Virus record (IMG/VR): IMGVR_UViG_3300032280_000642
Coordinates: 86,391 to 150,390 of that record
Reading direction: 5' to 3' (one strand)
From: a virus
Taxonomy: Duplodnaviria; Caudoviricetes
DNA length: 64,000 nucleotides
Program-made: the position numbers and the translations under genes
Notes under the pieces: model-generated
What the model saw: the letters and a program-made list of their open reading frames with translations, nothing else
Told to the model about the DNA's origin: nothing
Databases searched by the model: none
Shown: positions 1,185-15,688 of the stretch, one piece after another
Position numbering within the stretch: the stretch's first letter is position 1
Layout: every line of letters begins with the position of its first letter

Positions 1185-1854
1185 ATTGTAATAACTTTTC
1201 TAGTTTAACATTTCTCATAATAGATTCATAACCAACTAAAGAAATTTTAGATATTGTATCAACTATTTTATCCTTATTAAAGAATCCATTGTAAATAGTT
1301 ACATTACTATCACTACTATAAATAACTTTTACAAATAAATTAGGTTGTAATCTAACTATAAACTTTTCAATGAATTTATTATCTTCATCATGTATTTCAA
1401 TATAAAATGATTGTTCATACTCTGCACCATAATTAAATTGTGACTTAGTAAATCCTAGCTTATCCAGGTACTCAATAACTAAGTCCTGCTTTTTATAACG
1501 ACAAGTAAGTTTAGTTTCAGTATCATAGTAAGAAAATCTTGAAGGAAATCCTTCAAAGAAGTCAATGCCACCAATATGATAAGTATCATTATATTTCTCC
1601 AACTCTTTATCTAACTCACCTGTAAGATAAGCTAGTTTTTCTTCTCTTGAAGAAGAATTACTTATAATTTTTTTAGTTATCTCACTATCAAAGATAAAAT
1701 AAGTTTGTCCTGTTAAAGAAGCAGTTCTTTCACAATTATCAATTAGTTCTTGTGAAATTTCACTCTTTTCGTAGGTAAAAAATGTTTCGTGCTTTTTTTC
1801 TTGTTCAGTATCTTCATCAATAAATCCAATACCTTTACCTTGTATTATTTTCAT
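1183..1854 (-). CDS. hypothetical protein (start moved to MKIIQGKG; C-terminal RNVKLEKLL motif)
   Basis: The track ORF 1183..1989 overlaps the divergent gene; an AAAC-N17-TATAAT element at 1859-1885 (minus) supports a start at 1854. Confidence 0.65.
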   Translation of the reverse strand: MKIIQGKGIGFIDEDTEQEKKHETFFTYEKSEISQELIDNCERTASLTGQTYFIFDSEITKKIISNSSSREEKLAYLTGELDKELEKYNDTYHIGGIDFFEGFPSRFSYYDTETKLTCRYKKQDLVIEYLDKLGFTKSQFNYGAEYEQSFYIEIHDEDNKFIEKFIVRLQPNLFVKVIYSSDSNVTIYNGFFNKDKIVDTISKISLVGYESIMRNVKLEKLLQ

Positions 1855-1928
1855 AAACATTATATAAAAAATAAAAAAATGGTTTTTCAAATATAATATA
1901 TAATTAAACAAAAAATATAGAAATATAA

Positions 1929-10354: not shown

Positions 10355-12904
10355 ATGAGCATGATAAAAGTAATGAAAAGAAATGGTAAGAAAGAGCCAG
10401 TCATGTTAGACAAAATCTTAGACAGAATAACACAACAAACTTATGGTTTAGACCAAAAGTGGATTGTTCCTTTTGAAGTTGCCCAAAAGGTAATCGAAGG
10501 AATTATGCCAGACATTCAAACTTCTGTTTTAGATCAACTAGCAATGGAGACTGCAGCATCTCTTACAACAAAACACCCTGACTATTCAACATTAGCGGCA
10601 AGATTAGCAATTACGGCATTACACAAAGAAACTAAGAAAAGTTTTTCAGAAACTGTTTCTGACTTATACAAATACGTAGATCCAAAAACTAGAAAGCACT
10701 CACCGATTGTTTCTAAAACTTTCTACGATATTGTAAAAAAACACGCAGACGAATTAGACTCTGCGATTGTACACTCCAGAGATCATAACTTTGATTACTT
10801 TGGATTCAAAACATTAGAAAAATCATATCTATTGAAACTTGACGGTAAAGTTGCCGAAAGACCTCAATATATGTATATGAGAACTGCACTACAAGTTTGT
10901 GGTGAAGACATACAAGGTGTTATCGATACTTATAACTTACTTTCAGAAGGTTATTACACACACGCTACACCAACATTATTCAACTCTGGAACAACAAGAC
11001 CACAATTATCTTCTTGTTTCTTACTTGATACAGAATCAGATTCTATCGAAGGTATTTTCAATACTTTAAAAGAATCTGCACAGATTTCTAAAAATGCAGG
11101 TGGTATTGGTATCTCTTTTACAAAAGTAAGAGCAAAAGGTACTTATATCGCAGGAACTAACGGTACTTCAAATGGTATTATTCCTTTCCTAAAAATCTTC
11201 AACGAAACTGCAAGAGCAGTAGACCAAGGTGGTGGGAAAAGAAAAGGATCTATTGCAATTTATATGGAACCTTGGCATGCAGACATTATGGACTTCTTAG
11301 ATTTAAGAAAAAATCAAGGTAAAGATGAAATCAGAGCGAGAGATTTATTCTTAGCTATGTGGACCAATGACTTATTTATGGAAAGAGTTGACTTAGACGA
11401 AGATTGGTCTTTAATGTGTCCACACGAATGTCCTGGGTTAACTGAAACTTATGGTCAAGAATTTAGAGATTTATACATTGGTTATGAATCAGAAGGAAGA
11501 TTTAAAAGAGTAGTTAAAGCTAGAGAAGTATGGAATAAAATCTTAGAATCTCAAATTGAAACTGGAACTCCTTATATCTTATATAAAGACTCTATCAACG
11601 AGAAGTCTAACCAATCAAACATTGGTGTAGTTAGAAGTTCTAATTTGTGTGCAGAAATTGTGGAGGCCACTGGAATTACTAAAGTTCAGAAAGAAATTCT
11701 TCAAAATAAAGAATTATTGGAAAGTTTAGGATTAGGTTCATTCTACGGTGAAGAATCTGTAAATGAAACTGCAGTTTGTAACTTAGCTTCTATTGCACTT
11801 CCTAAGTTTGTAAATAAAAACAAAACTTATAACCATAACAAGTTATTTGATGTTGCTTATCAAGCTACTATAAACTTAAATAAAGTTATTGATGTAAATT
11901 ACTATCCATCAGAAGCAGCTAGATTCTCAAACTTATTACATAGACCAGTTGGTTTAGGTGTTCAAGGATTAGCAGACGTATTCTTTTTATTAGGAATTAC
12001 TTATGATTCTGATGAGGCAAAATCATTAAACAAAGAGATTTTTGAAACTATTTACTATGCTTCAATTAAAGCTTCTTGTGATTTAGCTAAAGTAGAAGGA
12101 GCCTACCCAACATTTGCTGGATCTCCAATTTCAGAAGGTAAATTCCAATTTGACTTATGGGGAACAAAACCAACAAAAAGATGGGATTGGGACAAGTTAA
12201 GAGAAGACATTAAAAAATATGGTGTTAGAAACTCTTTAACTACTTGTATTATGCCAACTGCATCAACTGCATCTATCTTAGGAAACGAAGCAAGTTGTGA
12301 AGCTCAAACTTCAAATATGTACACAAGAGGTGTTTTATCTGGTACTTTTATCATTGTAAACAAATACCTTGTAAAAGAGTTAGTTAAATTAGGTATCTGG
12401 TCTGATAACATTAGAAGAAAGATTATTGCAGAGAATGGTTCAGTTCAAAACATACCTGAAATTCCTACTAATGTAAAAGAAATATTTAAAACAGTTTATG
12501 AGATTAAACAAAGAGACGTAATTGATATGGCTGCAGAAAGAGGTGCATTTATTGATCAAACTCAATCAATGAACATCTTTATGGATTCTCCAAACTTCGC
12601 AAAATTGACAGCAATGCACTTTTACGGATGGGGAAGAAGAGCTCTTATGAAAGATGAAAATGGTGTTGAAATTATCCCACAAGGAGAAAACACAGAAGTA
12701 ATCTATGATAAAGCGGGGAAACCAAGATTTTACAGAGAGAAAAAATCAGCTTTAAAAACTGGTATTTACTATCTAAGAAATAAAGCAGCAGGTGATGCAG
12801 TTAAATTCACAACTCAAGAAGAAGTGAAATCTACTGAAGATCAAATGGCAGAAATCAGTTGTTCGTTAGACAACCCAGATGATTGTTTAGCATGTGGTTC
12901 ATAA
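10355..12904 (+). CDS. nrdA: ribonucleoside-diphosphate reductase class Ia alpha subunit with ATP cone
   Basis: VMKRNG ATP cone; ATPTLFNSG..QLSSCFL; DQGGGKRKG; SNLCAEI; CNLAS; MPTASTA; LKTGIYYLR; C-terminal CLACGS. Confidence 0.97.
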   Translation: MSMIKVMKRNGKKEPVMLDKILDRITQQTYGLDQKWIVPFEVAQKVIEGIMPDIQTSVLDQLAMETAASLTTKHPDYSTLAARLAITALHKETKKSFSETVSDLYKYVDPKTRKHSPIVSKTFYDIVKKHADELDSAIVHSRDHNFDYFGFKTLEKSYLLKLDGKVAERPQYMYMRTALQVCGEDIQGVIDTYNLLSEGYYTHATPTLFNSGTTRPQLSSCFLLDTESDSIEGIFNTLKESAQISKNAGGIGISFTKVRAKGTYIAGTNGTSNGIIPFLKIFNETARAVDQGGGKRKGSIAIYMEPWHADIMDFLDLRKNQGKDEIRARDLFLAMWTNDLFMERVDLDEDWSLMCPHECPGLTETYGQEFRDLYIGYESEGRFKRVVKAREVWNKILESQIETGTPYILYKDSINEKSNQSNIGVVRSSNLCAEIVEATGITKVQKEILQNKELLESLGLGSFYGEESVNETAVCNLASIALPKFVNKNKTYNHNKLFDVAYQATINLNKVIDVNYYPSEAARFSNLLHRPVGLGVQGLADVFFLLGITYDSDEAKSLNKEIFETIYYASIKASCDLAKVEGAYPTFAGSPISEGKFQFDLWGTKPTKRWDWDKLREDIKKYGVRNSLTTCIMPTASTASILGNEASCEAQTSNMYTRGVLSGTFIIVNKYLVKELVKLGIWSDNIRRKIIAENGSVQNIPEIPTNVKEIFKTVYEIKQRDVIDMAAERGAFIDQTQSMNIFMDSPNFAKLTAMHFYGWGRRALMKDENGVEIIPQGENTEVIYDKAGKPRFYREKKSALKTGIYYLRNKAAGDAVKFTTQEEVKSTEDQMAEISCSLDNPDDCLACGS

Positions 12905-12908
12905 ATTC

Positions 12909-12941
12909 AATAAATCCTCTTTTTAAGAGGATTTATTTTTT
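12909..12941 (+). terminator. intrinsic terminator of nrdA
   Basis: AATAAATCCTCTT-ttt-AAGAGGATTTATT followed by a T run. Confidence 0.85.
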
Positions 12942-13018
12942 ACTATAAAAAATCCACCTTGGAAAAAAGCGAAATTTTCGAGGTTACTATATACATAAAA
13001 TAAATTAAAAAAAAGATT

Positions 13019-13045
13019 AAACTTTTTCTAATTTAGTAATAGAAT
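13019..13045 (+). promoter_or_regulatory. putative phage middle-class promoter for the ncRNA locus
   Basis: AAAC at 13019-13022, 17-nt spacer, TAGAAT at 13040-13045; same layout as the promoters of the replication genes. Confidence 0.55.
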
Positions 13046-13054
13046 AATATAACT

Positions 13055-13115
13055 AGTAGCAAATCTAACAGATACATCGAAATGGTATTCAACAAAACTC
13101 TGTGGATAAATTACT
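13055..13115 (+). ncRNA. candidate short Y-RNA-like RNA 1 (about 61 nt)
   Basis: Nested pairing AGTAG/TTACT, ATCT/GGAT, ACAGA/TCTGT; carries TAGCAAA..CTAA..GATACATCG; lies upstream of the Ro60 gene. Confidence 0.55.
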
Positions 13116-13144
13116 CTGGTTTTATTTATAAAAAAACGCAAACA

Positions 13145-13365
13145 TAGCAAAGTTCTAAGATACTTCGTATATTATACAACTATCAGAAAGAACGTATAGA
13201 GACGACTACTCTATGCTACCATGTAAGGGCATTAGCGCTTGCCTCTGGTCGAAAAGTCAGGAATTCATAAGTTTCCTTCAAAAATATGAGTGAGATGTTG
13301 CTTTAAATATCGGCAAAGTTAAGTAGAATTCTTTGCGTCGCTTAGGCTAATATTCTTGTTTGCTA
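13145..13365 (+). ncRNA. candidate long Y-RNA-like RNA 2 (about 221 nt, multibranched)
   Basis: Terminal stem TAGCAAA 13145-51 / TTTGCTA 13359-65; CTAAG 13155-59 / CTTAG 13341-45; 7-8 consecutive internal hairpins; GATACTTCG motif shared with RNA 1. Confidence 0.62.
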
Positions 13366-13374
13366 AATTATAAT

Positions 13375-13414
13375 AAGACCAGATTTACAGAAATGTAATT
13401 CTGGTCTTTTTTTT
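13375..13414 (+). terminator. intrinsic terminator between the ncRNAs and the Ro60 gene
   Basis: AAGACCAGA-TTTACA-GAAA-TGTAAT-TCTGGTCTT followed by a T run. Confidence 0.85.
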
Positions 13415-13446
13415 ACAAAAAAACGAAATAAAAATAAAATAATAAT

Positions 13447-14895
13447 ATGTCAAAATTTAACACAACCGTAAAAGAACCAAAAACAAAAACTATAAACCTA
13501 GCAGGTGGTGAAGCTTATTCTCAAACAAACGAATTAGCTTTAGTATCTATGTTACTAACTTCATTTGTGAATGATCAGTTCTACAAGTCTGGTAATGATA
13601 CATTAAAAGATTTAAGAAGTTTGATTAAGAAAGTAGATCCTGAGTTTGCCGCGAAAGCTGCTATTTATGCTCGTGATAAATTTGGTATGAGAAGTATTAC
13701 TCACGCTTTGGCAGGTGAATTGACATCAGAATTAAAAGGTAGTGAATTAGGTAAAAACTTCTATGACAAAGTTGTAGTTCGTGTTGATGATATGACTGAG
13801 ATTATGTCATACTACTTAATGCACAAAACAAGTAAAGACAATCCAAAGTTCCCAAACTCTTTGAAAAAAGGATTTGCAAAAGCTTTCGATAAATTTGATG
13901 CGTACCAGTTAGCGAAATATTCTGGTAAAAACAAAGACCTTAAATTGGTTGACTTGGTGAACATTGTACACCCTGTTCCAACTGATAGAAACAAAACTGC
14001 CTTAGAATTACTTGTTAAAGGTGATTTGAAAAACACTGAAACTTGGGAAGCTAAACTTTCTCAAGCAGGTCAAGTAGCCGAAAATGAAGAAGATTTAACT
14101 CAATTAAAAGCTGATGCTTGGACTGATTTAATCACTTCAAGAAAAATTGGTTATTTTGCACTTTTAAGAAACCTAAGAAATATCTTAAATCAAGCACCTA
14201 ACGCAGTTCCGGCTGCTTGTGAGTTGTTAGTAGATGAGAAAATGATTAGTAAATCAAGAGTTTTACCTTTTAGATTTGCGACTGCTTATGAAGAAATCAG
14301 TAAAATGGGTTCTTCAAAAGGAGTTAGAGAAGTATTGGTTGCAATAAACCAAGCGTTAGAGGTTTCAATGTGTAATGTTCCTAAGTTTGATGGTGATACA
14401 TTAGTTGTTATGGACGTTTCTGGATCAATGAGTGGAAGACCTTCTGAGATTGCTTCATTATTTGGTGCGATTTTAGCAAAATCTAATAATGCGGATGTTT
14501 TAACATTCGCCAACAGAGCTGATTACAAGTCATATAATCCATTGGATTCTGTTATGACAATTAGAAATAGTTTTAGATACTCTGGTGGTGGTACGAATTT
14601 CAAATCAATCTTTACAACTGCTAATAAAAAGTACGATAGAGTAGTAATACTCTCAGACCTTCAAGGTTGGATTGGTTACACAAGTCCAAGTGCTGAGTTT
14701 AAACAATACAAGAAAACATATGATGCGAATCCTTATGTTTACTCTTGGGATCTTGCCGGACTCGGCACAATGCAGTTTCCAGAAAACAATGTATTTGCTT
14801 TGGCTGGTTTCTCTGATAAAGTTTTTGACGTAATGAAGATGATGGAGATGGATAAAAAAGCTCTTTTCAATGAAATTAAAGCTATTCAACTTTAA
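13447..14895 (+). CDS. Ro60/Rsr-family RNA-binding protein (TROVE plus vWA domain)
   Basis: TINLAGGEAY, YARDKFGMRS, FDAYQLAKY, TWE..LS, ALLRNLRN, LPFRF..AY; MIDAS DVSGSMS..GGGT..ILSD. Confidence 0.93.
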   Translation: MSKFNTTVKEPKTKTINLAGGEAYSQTNELALVSMLLTSFVNDQFYKSGNDTLKDLRSLIKKVDPEFAAKAAIYARDKFGMRSITHALAGELTSELKGSELGKNFYDKVVVRVDDMTEIMSYYLMHKTSKDNPKFPNSLKKGFAKAFDKFDAYQLAKYSGKNKDLKLVDLVNIVHPVPTDRNKTALELLVKGDLKNTETWEAKLSQAGQVAENEEDLTQLKADAWTDLITSRKIGYFALLRNLRNILNQAPNAVPAACELLVDEKMISKSRVLPFRFATAYEEISKMGSSKGVREVLVAINQALEVSMCNVPKFDGDTLVVMDVSGSMSGRPSEIASLFGAILAKSNNADVLTFANRADYKSYNPLDSVMTIRNSFRYSGGGTNFKSIFTTANKKYDRVVILSDLQGWIGYTSPSAEFKQYKKTYDANPYVYSWDLAGLGTMQFPENNVFALAGFSDKVFDVMKMMEMDKKALFNEIKAIQL

Positions 14896-14896
14896 T

Positions 14897-14925
14897 TAAA
14901 AACCCACCAATTGGTGGGTTTTTTT
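14897..14925. terminator. bidirectional intrinsic terminator
   Basis: AAAAACCCACCA-AT-TGGTGGGTTTTT. Confidence 0.85.
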
Positions 14926-15688
14926 ATCTCCATATTTTTTCGAGGTTTATCTTAGAAGTCATCTCAACTACTTTACCATCTTTAATAAGTGAGTATCTTT
15001 GTATAGGAGCAAACATTGTTATAATTTTCTTAACTTTTACTATTTCTTGTGATTCCATATCAAAGTTAAAGATTTGTAAAAGGTTTTCAATTTCACTATA
15101 TTTTAAATGGTTTTTATGACCAACAAAATGAGTAAAGTCATAGAAGTAAGAATTATAAACACCTGAATTTTCTTCTGCTGATTTTATAATTAAAAAGTTA
15201 GTTAAACTATTTTCAACTCCAATTGAGGGTAATGTGTATTTATATCCATCAACTACAAAACATCTATGTTTATAATCGTAGTAGTTTATCAATTCTCCTA
15301 GTTGAAAGTAGTTAAAGTTTTTTACTCCAAATTCAATTTTTTCATTTTTATCTTGTTCTTTATCAAAATAAACTAGATTGATTGGTCTTCCTTTTGTTAG
15401 TTTAACAATTTCTAAGAAAATAAATATAACGTCAATTGATTTAAGGTCTTCATATTTATATCCTTTACTTAGGGTTATATTTCTTTCAACTATTTTCTTA
15501 ATGTAATAGATTACGACACCAACGTCATCTCTAACGTAGTTTTTTTCATAATCTTCTATATCTTTTTTACTTGCAGCCCTAACCGTTACTTCAAAGTCTT
15601 CTTTATAGAATAATCCTTGAGATGGTAACAGTTTAATATCTATCTTTCTTTTACTTACAAATAATTTTCTAAAAAATTCTATTATCAT
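14924..15688 (-). CDS. putative baseplate hub assembly protein (T4 gp26-like)
   Basis: LLPSQGLFY..VTVRA..DIE..DL...D..FIFL.I pattern. Confidence 0.45.
   Translation of the reverse strand: MIIEFFRKLFVSKRKIDIKLLPSQGLFYKEDFEVTVRAASKKDIEDYEKNYVRDDVGVVIYYIKKIVERNITLSKGYKYEDLKSIDVIFIFLEIVKLTKGRPINLVYFDKEQDKNEKIEFGVKNFNYFQLGELINYYDYKHRCFVVDGYKYTLPSIGVENSLTNFLIIKSAEENSGVYNSYFYDFTHFVGHKNHLKYSEIENLLQIFNFDMESQEIVKVKKIITMFAPIQRYSLIKDGKVVEMTSKINLEKIWR

What the first reader, a model, noticed from the sequence alone, without database searches (positions are those of the whole stretch)
13019..14895. Phage Ro60 (TROVE) module with two unusual Y-RNA-like ncRNAs
Seen: the roughly 540-nt gap between nrdA and the TROVE-vWA gene is the largest non-coding stretch in the window. 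In order it holds a promoter (AAAC-N17-TAGAAT), RNA 1 (13055-13115), RNA 2 (13145-13365) and a strong terminator. Both RNAs pair their 5' and 3' ends through an interrupted stem. Both start with the same motif: TAGCAAA-TCTAACA-GATACATCG in RNA 1 and TAGCAAA-GTTCTAA-GATACTTCG in RNA 2. Established: Ro60/Rsr proteins bind Y RNAs encoded next to their gene through an end-paired stem, while the rest of the RNA recruits effectors (PNPase in Deinococcus; a tRNA-like domain in YrlA); some phages encode Ro60. Inference: these are Ro60 partner RNAs of a class that is not YrlA, since there is no GTTCRA T-loop. One looks like a minimal stem-only RNA and the other an elaborate scaffold. The phage could use this RNP to redirect host RNA decay or repair, or to counter RNA-cleaving defences.
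Basis: partly seen in the sequence, partly recalled or inferred. Interest (0 to 1): 0.9.

Follow-up and report, generated by a model that had tools for sequence, protein, structure and literature searches.

The report
Phage Ro60 with two Y RNAs
A fragment of a very large phage genome encodes the RNA-binding ring protein Ro60 and, just upstream, two conserved structured RNAs of the Y-RNA kind; the longer one carries a roughly 180-nt pseudoknotted domain where known bacterial Y RNAs carry a tRNA look-alike.

Summary

**Locus.** Window 12905-13446 is the largest ORF-free gap. It lies between nrdA and a TROVE+vWA (Ro60) gene.

**RNAs.**
- RNA1 is 13053-13119 (67 nt).
- RNA2 is 13138-13363 (226 nt).
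- A strong terminator follows at 13375-13416.

**Conservation.** Both RNAs recur upstream of Ro60 genes in about 40 related metagenomic phage contigs, several of 385-635 kb. Their stems show clear compensatory changes.

**Handle.** Both RNAs share one handle: end stem, bulge, 9-bp stem, then a UAC-UUCG motif. The same handle encloses tRNA-like inserts in distant phage Ro60 loci, and one of those matches Rfam YrlA below its cut-off. So these RNAs belong to the YrlA/YrlB Y-RNA lineage.
- RNA1 is a YrlB-like hairpin.
- RNA2 replaces the tRNA mimic with a multi-helix module that includes a covariation-supported H-type pseudoknot. No Rfam family matches it.

**Relatives.** Related megaphages also carry handle-bearing RNAs with tRNA-like inserts inside tRNA arrays far from Ro60. 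The window's phage record is only about 25% complete and may hold one too.

**Prior knowledge.** Phage Ro60 with two upstream Y RNAs is already known experimentally (Thermus phage phiLo). This scan has also noted phage Ro60 with handle-sharing RNAs on other DNA.

**Verdict.** New variant of a known kind. Ro60 binding, expression and function were not tested.

The parts
12909..12937 (+). Intrinsic terminator of nrdA. It marks the RNA locus as a separate transcription unit.
   Evidence: Terminator scan: 13-pair stem plus T run.
12944..12996 (+). Conserved upstream element: a 10-bp hairpin followed by a TATATAC box. It may be a promoter or regulatory site.
   Evidence: The hairpin folds at -8.9 kcal/mol, z = -2.8. 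The element is conserved in many relatives, with stem changes that keep pairing in the closer ones. TATATAC-like boxes are enriched in the window (11 found against 4.2 expected).
13019..13045 (+). Promoter-like two-part motif 8 nt upstream of RNA1.
   Evidence: Single match in the window. A comparable motif lies 15-50 nt upstream of RNA1 in most related loci. Not tested.
13053..13119 (+). RNA1, a short YrlB-like Y RNA. End stem 13053-56 / 13116-19, bulged U 13057, two pairs 13058-59 / 13114-15, internal loop, upper stem 13063-71 / 13100-07, A-rich apical region 13072-99.
   Evidence: On the 24-sequence alignment A1, 96.7% of cells are paired, 10 of 15 pairs change on both sides, 0 of 500 shuffles reach this, and slid controls give 31-53%. 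Model R1 scores the window copy at 60 bits.
13120..13137 (+). A/U-rich spacer between RNA1 and RNA2 with no terminator. It implies co-transcription and processing.
   Evidence: Sequence. The same arrangement is seen in relatives.
13138..13363 (+). RNA2, a long Y RNA. The handle is the same as in RNA1:
- end stem 13138-44 / 13357-63
- two pairs 13146-47 / 13355-56
- stem 13151-59 / 13341-48

The internal module contains:
- hairpin 13194-13216
- hairpin 13218-13249
- conserved A-rich strand 13250-58
- pseudoknot stem 1, 13259-63 / 13274-78
- pseudoknot stem 2, 13266-69 / 13285-88
- hairpin 13289-13302
- hairpin 13313-13336
   Evidence: On alignment A2 (15 sequences), 97.2% of cells are paired, 13 pairs change on both sides, and slid controls give 35-50%. 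All four pseudoknot pairs change on both sides, with four pair types at one position. The 3' domain is shared with a second module type, with pair swaps in stem 1 and the following hairpin. No Rfam or tRNA match.
13375..13416 (+). Intrinsic terminator ending the RNA unit.
   Evidence: -18.4 kcal/mol, z = -6.45, then eight U. The same hairpin follows RNA2 in all related loci.
13447..14895 (+). Ro60 homologue: TROVE ring domain plus a vWA domain with a D-x-S-x-S metal site.
   Evidence: Pfam TROVE 72.8 bits (cut-off 23), with weak vWA_Ro60 and VWA_CoxE matches. PHROG 850 'RNA-binding protein' at 1.5e-43. The best solved relative is Thermus phage phiLo Ro60 (9KOP/9L5Y) at E = 7e-26 over residues 13-475.

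Best explanation
The locus is a phage Ro60 ribonucleoprotein module. One transcription unit (about 13046-13416) yields two Y RNAs.

Shown by comparative sequence evidence: each RNA pairs its 5' and 3' ends into the same conserved handle. The handle runs end stem, bulged U, two pairs, asymmetric internal loop, 9-bp stem, then a UAC-UUCG junction. It is the phage version of the YrlA/YrlB Ro60-binding module.

Inferred: the adjacent Ro60 ring protein binds this handle, which stabilises the RNAs after the A/U-rich spacer is cleaved. RNA1 offers only a small A-rich apical loop. RNA2 presents a folded module of about 180 nt, made of several hairpins, a conserved A-rich single strand and an H-type pseudoknot. 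This module sits where YrlA carries its tRNA mimic.

By analogy with Deinococcus, Salmonella and Thermus phage phiLo, the module most likely tethers Ro60 to an effector, with host PNPase the first candidate. It may also shield the RNA from exonucleases. The result would be to redirect decay or repair of structured RNA during infection.
For: - The protein is Ro60. Pfam TROVE is above its cut-off and the best PDB relative is phiLo Ro60.
- Both RNAs are conserved on the Ro60 strand in loci L001-L026, L031, L032 and L037, at 67-98% protein identity.
- The RNA1 stems covary. The RNA2 handle, hairpins and pseudoknot covary.
- Model R1 detects untrained handle RNAs next to Ro60 genes in L036, L028, L034, L027 and L038. 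In three near-complete 385-483-kb genomes it scored one match each, the RNA1 beside Ro60, though only 150 of roughly 560-710 first-look candidates were scored per genome, and later searches found further, weaker handle RNAs in two of them.
- The same handle encloses tRNA-like inserts in L028 (Rfam tRNA, 52 bits) and L033 (Rfam YrlA, 42 bits, E = 5e-6).
- 29 of 33 DNA-pattern hits in IMG/VR lie 294-652 nt upstream of a Ro60 gene on the same strand.
- There is no credible ORF in the gap.
- Published precedent exists. Y RNAs are encoded next to Ro60 in more than 250 bacteria and in 22 phages (PMC4201824). PhiLo Ro60 binds two upstream Y-like RNAs and, with them, host PNPase (PMC12135203).
Against: - There are no expression, processing or binding data. 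All sequences are metagenomic.
- The window's handle reads G-C-A-A-A where the published motif has C-G-A-A, so the literal GNCGAA motif is not met.
- Rfam YrlA gives no match in the window even at E <= 10.
- Single-sequence fold energies are not significant.
- The aligned sequences are related, which inflates the shuffle statistics. The slid-partner control is less exposed to this.
- The effector is a guess. Nothing in the data points specifically to PNPase.
Confidence: 0.8

Rival explanations
1. The structured region is mainly a cis-acting leader of the Ro60 mRNA. Ro60 would bind its own upstream RNA, and the terminator at 13375-13416 would act as an attenuator that sets the protein level. 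On this view the region does not produce stable trans-acting RNAs.
For: A strong terminator lies only 30 nt before the start codon. The only promoter-like site after it is a generic A/T-rich match at 13412-13440.
Against: Handle RNAs of the same family sit inside tRNA arrays far from any Ro60 gene and downstream of Ro60 in L036. They therefore work away from the Ro60 mRNA. End-paired stems are the hallmark of stable processed Y RNAs. Autoregulation could still coexist with the main reading.
Confidence: 0.1
2. RNA2 is an unrelated functional RNA, such as a ribozyme, riboswitch or protein-sponge RNA, that merely shares a closing stem with Y RNAs and does not act through Ro60.
For: Its module of about 180 nt has no similarity to any Y RNA effector domain or Rfam family. 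It includes a pseudoknot and invariant single strands, which is typical of ligand- or protein-binding RNAs.
Against: Its handle matches RNA1 and the distant Ro60-linked RNAs motif for motif. Three different module types (A, B, C) sit in the same handle at the same place before Ro60. Its 5' motif is almost always followed by Ro60.
Confidence: 0.06
3. These are chance hairpins in A/T-rich intergenic DNA with no RNA function.
For: The fold z-scores of the single sequences are weak.
Against: Conservation extends across loci down to 67% protein identity, with many compensatory pairs. Slid and shuffled controls fall far below the observed values.
Confidence: 0.01

Closest known systems
Bacterial and phage YrlA/YrlB Y RNAs with Rsr/Ro60 (Chen et al. 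2014, PMC4201824; Rfam RF02553)
   Same: - Encoded within a few hundred nt of Ro60 on the same strand.
- Two RNAs per locus, probably from one precursor.
- Ends paired in an interrupted stem with a purine-rich motif on the 5' strand.
- A conserved pyrimidine-U-A-pyrimidine step follows the stem.
- RNA1 resembles the short YrlB hairpin.
   Different: - Neither RNA has T, D or acceptor-like arms.
- Rfam YrlA does not match.
- RNA2, at 226 nt (up to 285 nt in relatives), is about twice the size of YrlA.
- RNA2's module contains a pseudoknot.
- The 5' motif deviates from GNCGAA.
Thermus phage phiLo Ro60 with Yrl1 and Yrl2 (PMC12135203; PDB 9KOP, 9L5Y)
   Same: It is the closest solved protein (E = 7e-26). 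The layout is the same, with two Y-like RNAs directly upstream of a phage Ro60 gene. For phiLo, Ro60 binding and ternary complexes with host PNPase were shown in vitro.
   Different: The phiLo RNAs are described as simple stem-bulge-stem RNAs. No pseudoknotted module of the RNA2 kind is reported. The host and phage lineage are unrelated.
Deinococcus radiodurans Rsr-Yrn1-PNPase (RYPER)
   Same: Modular logic: a Ro60-binding stem plus an effector-binding module that tethers the ring to an exoribonuclease. Several Y RNAs per genome, some co-transcribed with tRNA.
   Different: Yrn1 keeps the metazoan-type helix and tRNA-like features. No sequence or structural similarity to the RNA2 module was found.

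Membership tests
Y RNA (bacterial/phage YrlA-YrlB lineage, Ro60-binding module) | Encoded close to, and on the same strand as, a Ro60/TROVE gene | tested here: met
   RNA1 starts 394 nt and RNA2 309 nt upstream of the Ro60 start, on the same strand. The same holds in about 40 related contigs.
Y RNA (bacterial/phage YrlA-YrlB lineage, Ro60-binding module) | 5' and 3' ends paired in a long stem interrupted by a bulge or internal loop | tested here: met
   Covariation-supported stems in both RNAs.
Y RNA (bacterial/phage YrlA-YrlB lineage, Ro60-binding module) | GNCGAA(N)G motif on the 5' strand (PMC4201824) | tested here: inconclusive
   Relatives carry A-G-(C/U)-G-A-(A/U) at that place. The L033 RNA that matches Rfam YrlA carries the same variant. 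The window itself has A-G-C-A-A-A, so the literal motif is not met.
Y RNA (bacterial/phage YrlA-YrlB lineage, Ro60-binding module) | Conserved Y-U-A-Y step at the top of the stem (PMC4201824; 10.1101/312249) | tested here: met
   (A/U)-U-A-C directly follows the 9-bp stem in every copy.
Y RNA (bacterial/phage YrlA-YrlB lineage, Ro60-binding module) | Bound and stabilised by Ro60 | not testable with these tools
   Needs RIP or EMSA.
YrlA proper (Rfam RF02553, tRNA-mimic effector module) | T arm, closed acceptor-like stem and D arm; score at or above the Rfam cut-off | tested here: not met
   No YrlA or tRNA match in 12700-13700 at E <= 10. ARAGORN finds no tRNA in the window. No match in the RNA2 of ten related loci.
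Ro60 / TROVE protein | TROVE (HEAT-repeat ring) domain followed by a vWA domain with a MIDAS motif | tested here: met
   Pfam TROVE 72.8 bits against a cut-off of 23. The vWA matches are below their cut-offs but aligned. The D-V-S-G-S motif is aligned to the phiLo Ro60 structure.

The most novel reading that the evidence does not exclude
RNA2 defines a new kind of Y-RNA effector module: a pseudoknotted domain of about 180 nt that exists in three interchangeable versions and has taken the place of the tRNA mimic next to Ro60. It would recruit a partner other than those known. Megaphages would then run a toolkit of up to five Y RNAs (a hairpin, a pseudoknotted form and two tRNA-like forms placed in tRNA arrays) that aims one Ro60 ring at different targets.
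Probability: 0.35. Interest if true: 0.75.

Novelty: new variant of a known kind. Interest (0 to 1): 0.58.

Why it matters
How the variable half of a Y RNA chooses the partner of Ro60 is still poorly understood. So far nearly all bacterial examples carry a tRNA mimic. This clade offers a natural experiment: one conserved handle and one Ro60, but at least three large non-tRNA modules plus tRNA-like versions elsewhere in the genome.

It gives concrete RNAs, with a covariation-supported structure, for testing two things:
- what Ro60 recognises in the handle;
- what the modules recruit during infection by very large phages that also carry big tRNA arrays.

It also shows that the Rfam YrlA model misses this part of the family.

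Tried and rejected
1. Known RNA families. Rfam at permissive thresholds, on the window and on 19 plus 9 related loci, gave nothing for RNA1 or RNA2.
2. tRNA likeness. There was no ARAGORN hit and no T-loop.
3. RNase P or SRP resemblance. By eye, the conserved A-rich strand followed by G-U-C-C-G recalled RNase P CR-I and, in one locus, SRP domain IV. No RNase P or SRP model matched, and the similarity does not extend further, so I dropped it.
4. Kissing interaction between two loops that both contain a palindromic hexamer. The loops do not covary, so I dropped it.
5. Alternative pairing of the handle's 5' strand with a conserved hexamer downstream. It is absent or broken in several loci and is left as a possible alternative conformer.
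6. It is specific to the window's nearest kin, so I replaced it with the conserved stem 13138-44 / 13357-63.
7. Small ORFs in the gap. There are only 40-aa and 26-aa frames, with no support.
8. A conserved protein partner next to Ro60. The 254-aa neighbour is syntenic in many relatives but has no Pfam or PHROG match, and its orientation varies.
9. I did not build a covariance model of the full RNA2, because its length makes calibration too slow. The central part of RNA2 (13167-13258) is therefore less well resolved.

Full report
**What is there**

The window is the last 64 kb of a 150,390-bp IMG/VR virus record that CheckV rates 25% complete. It is therefore a fragment of a phage genome of several hundred kb.

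- nrdA ends at 12904 with its own terminator.
- A 482-aa protein starts at 13447. It matches Pfam TROVE (72.8 bits, cut-off 23), has weak vWA matches, and matches PHROG 850.
- Its best solved relative is the Ro60 of Thermus phage phiLo (E = 7e-26 over nearly full length). Xenopus and human Ro60 follow further down the list.
- The 542 nt between the two genes are the longest ORF-free stretch of the window. They hold only 40-aa and 26-aa frames.

**Relatives**

A protein-guided scan of IMG/VR returned 38 loci, with Ro60 at 26-98% identity. GenBank holds one close record, a 634,780-bp uncultured phage.

In all loci down to about 67% identity, the region upstream of Ro60 has the same layout:
1. 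a short RNA;
2. an A/U-rich spacer without a terminator;
3. a long RNA;
4. a conserved terminator hairpin.

nrdA upstream, and a 254-aa ORF plus a DNA methylase downstream, are largely syntenic.

**RNA1 (13053-13119)**

I aligned 24 distinct copies. The proposed structure is a 4-bp end stem, a bulged U, two invariant pairs, an internal loop and a 9-bp upper stem.

| Measure | Result |
|---|---|
| Cells paired | 96.7% |
| Pairs changed on both sides | 10 of 15 |
| Shuffles reaching this | 0 of 500 |
| Paired with 3' partners slid by 1-3 columns | 31-53% |

RNAalifold independently finds the same helices. The window copy needs a one-base bulge in the upper stem. The apical region is A-rich with a small variable hairpin.

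**RNA2 (13138-13363)**

The handle repeats that of RNA1. The 7-bp end stem shows compensated changes in L023, L019 and L022.

Inside the handle, relatives fall into three module types:
- A, which includes the window;
- B, in L013, L019, L021, L022 and L024;
- C, in L011, L012, L017, L018, L020 and L032.

For type A I counted 45 pairs in eight helices.

| Measure | Result |
|---|---|
| Cells paired | 97.2% |
| Pairs changed on both sides | 13 |
| Slid controls | 35-50% |

The most informative element is an H-type pseudoknot. The loop of the hairpin at 13259-13278 pairs with the bases just 5' of the next hairpin (13266-69 with 13285-88). All four pairs change on both sides, and one position shows four different pair types. 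An A-rich strand of 6-13 nt connects the two pseudoknot stems.

Types A and B share this whole 3' domain. Pair swaps occur in pseudoknot stem 1 and in the following hairpin. Three type-A loci lack the pseudoknot unit. A G-G-U-G-A-A-A-A-A-G-like single strand is common to most type A loci, one type B locus (L024) and, as a close variant, the type C loci I read; the window's own copy is a divergent variant.

The central part of RNA2 (13167-13258) is less well resolved, because its hairpins vary in length.

**Are they Y RNAs?**

Published bacterial Y RNAs are defined by five features (PMC4201824; 10.1101/312249):
1. proximity to Ro60 on the same strand;
2. an end-paired interrupted stem;
3. a GNCGAA(N)G motif on the 5' strand;
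4. a conserved Y-U-A-Y step;
5. in YrlA, a tRNA-like module.

Features 1, 2 and 4 are met. Feature 3 is met only loosely, because the window has A where the motif has G. Feature 5 is not met.

The link to the family comes from more distant loci.
- The same handle encloses a tRNA body in L028 (Rfam tRNA, 52.5 bits).
- It encloses a T-arm / acceptor / D-arm insert in L033. That RNA matches Rfam YrlA at 42 bits, E = 5e-6, which is below the cut-off of 69.
- A covariance model built only from RNA1 finds untrained handle RNAs beside Ro60 genes in L036 (two copies), L028 (two copies), L034, L027 and L038, all on the Ro60 strand.
- In three near-complete 385-483-kb genomes the model scored one match each, the RNA1 beside Ro60. 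Only 150 of roughly 560-710 first-look candidates were scored per genome. Later searches found further, weaker handle RNAs in tRNA arrays of two of these genomes.
- A pure DNA pattern for the RNA2 5' motif hits 34 viral contigs. I examined 33 of the loci (the 34th, L011, was already known to carry Ro60). In 29, a Ro60 gene starts 294-652 nt downstream on the same strand.
- Of the remaining four, two loci end too early to tell, one has Ro60 1.6 kb away, and one lies in a tRNA array.

**Wider repertoire**

In the 635-kb phage, model R1 also finds three handle RNAs inside tRNA arrays, flush between tRNA genes.
- One, of 140 nt, has a canonical T arm, a closed 7-bp acceptor-like stem and a D arm in YrlA order (read by eye). 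Rfam YrlA did not match it at E <= 0.1.
- Another carries D, anticodon-like and T arms in tRNA order.
- Counterparts of similar size (about 142 nt) and handle, whose inserts I did not read, occur in two other near-complete genomes.
- L062 shows a further pair in a tRNA array.

So the clade keeps tRNA-like Y RNAs more than 100 kb from Ro60. The pair next to Ro60 is the non-tRNA part of a larger set. The window's own 150 kb shows none, but three quarters of that genome is missing.

**Mechanism**

Shown here:
- two conserved, structured, co-oriented RNAs with one shared handle;
- tight linkage to Ro60.

Inferred from published systems:
- Ro60 binds the handle.
- The RNAs are cut out of one precursor.
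- The variable module recruits an effector or protects the RNA.

PNPase is the default candidate, for three reasons. It is tethered by Yrn1 in Deinococcus. It co-purifies with YrlA in Salmonella. It forms ternary complexes with phiLo Ro60 and its Yrl RNAs (PMC4201824, PMC12135203). Nothing here tests that choice.

A cis-regulatory role of the terminator before Ro60 is possible, but it cannot be the whole story, because handle RNAs also occur far from Ro60.

**Novelty**

Phage Ro60 with upstream Y RNAs is known, and this scan has repeatedly noted phage Ro60 with handle-sharing RNAs on other DNA. What I did not find described is the following, after three literature searches and after Rfam:
- the long pseudoknotted module, in three variants;
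- its coexistence with tRNA-array Y RNAs in megaphages.

I rate the finding as a new variant of a known kind.

Noticed in passing
L042 960-1029, L043 1034-1173, L044 996-1101 (LR745206.1); L045 511-652; L048 264-405; L062 about 1720-1900 (minus strand): Handle-bearing Y-like RNAs sit flush between tRNA genes in the tRNA arrays of related megaphages, more than 100 kb from Ro60. One has a YrlA-order tRNA mimic and another a tRNA-order body without an acceptor stem. This suggests processing by RNase P and RNase Z, and up to five Y RNAs per genome.
   Followed up: partly
window 12944-12996: A conserved element lies between the nrdA terminator and the RNA1 promoter-like motif. It is a hairpin whose stem changes keep pairing in the closer relatives, followed by a TATATAC box. 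Similar boxes precede other genes in the window. It may be a phage promoter with a regulatory hairpin.
   Followed up: partly
L008 about 2715-2770 (inside its RNA2): One relative carries, in the variable hairpin of RNA2, a T-arm-like stem-loop plus flanking bases that are nearly identical to the T arm of the tRNA-like Y RNA in L028. This points to exchange of tRNA pieces between Y RNA modules.
   Followed up: no
L080 2967-5557: In this locus the Ro60 match starts only at residue 165, 1.6 kb downstream of the RNA2 motif. The gene may be interrupted by an insertion.
   Followed up: no
L030, L034, L038 upstream regions; L035 587-950: Distant phage Ro60 loci carry arrays of three to five handle RNAs upstream of the gene. 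L035 also encodes a tmRNA (Rfam, 88.9 bits) 2 kb upstream of Ro60.
   Followed up: no
window 14924-15688 (minus strand): A 254-aa ORF without Pfam or PHROG matches lies between Ro60 and a DNA methylase in most relatives. Its orientation varies. Its function is unknown.
   Followed up: partly
window 13409-13446: There is no Shine-Dalgarno sequence before the Ro60 start, only an A-rich tract. A sigma-70-like match (13412-13440) would put the transcript start almost at the ATG.
   Followed up: no
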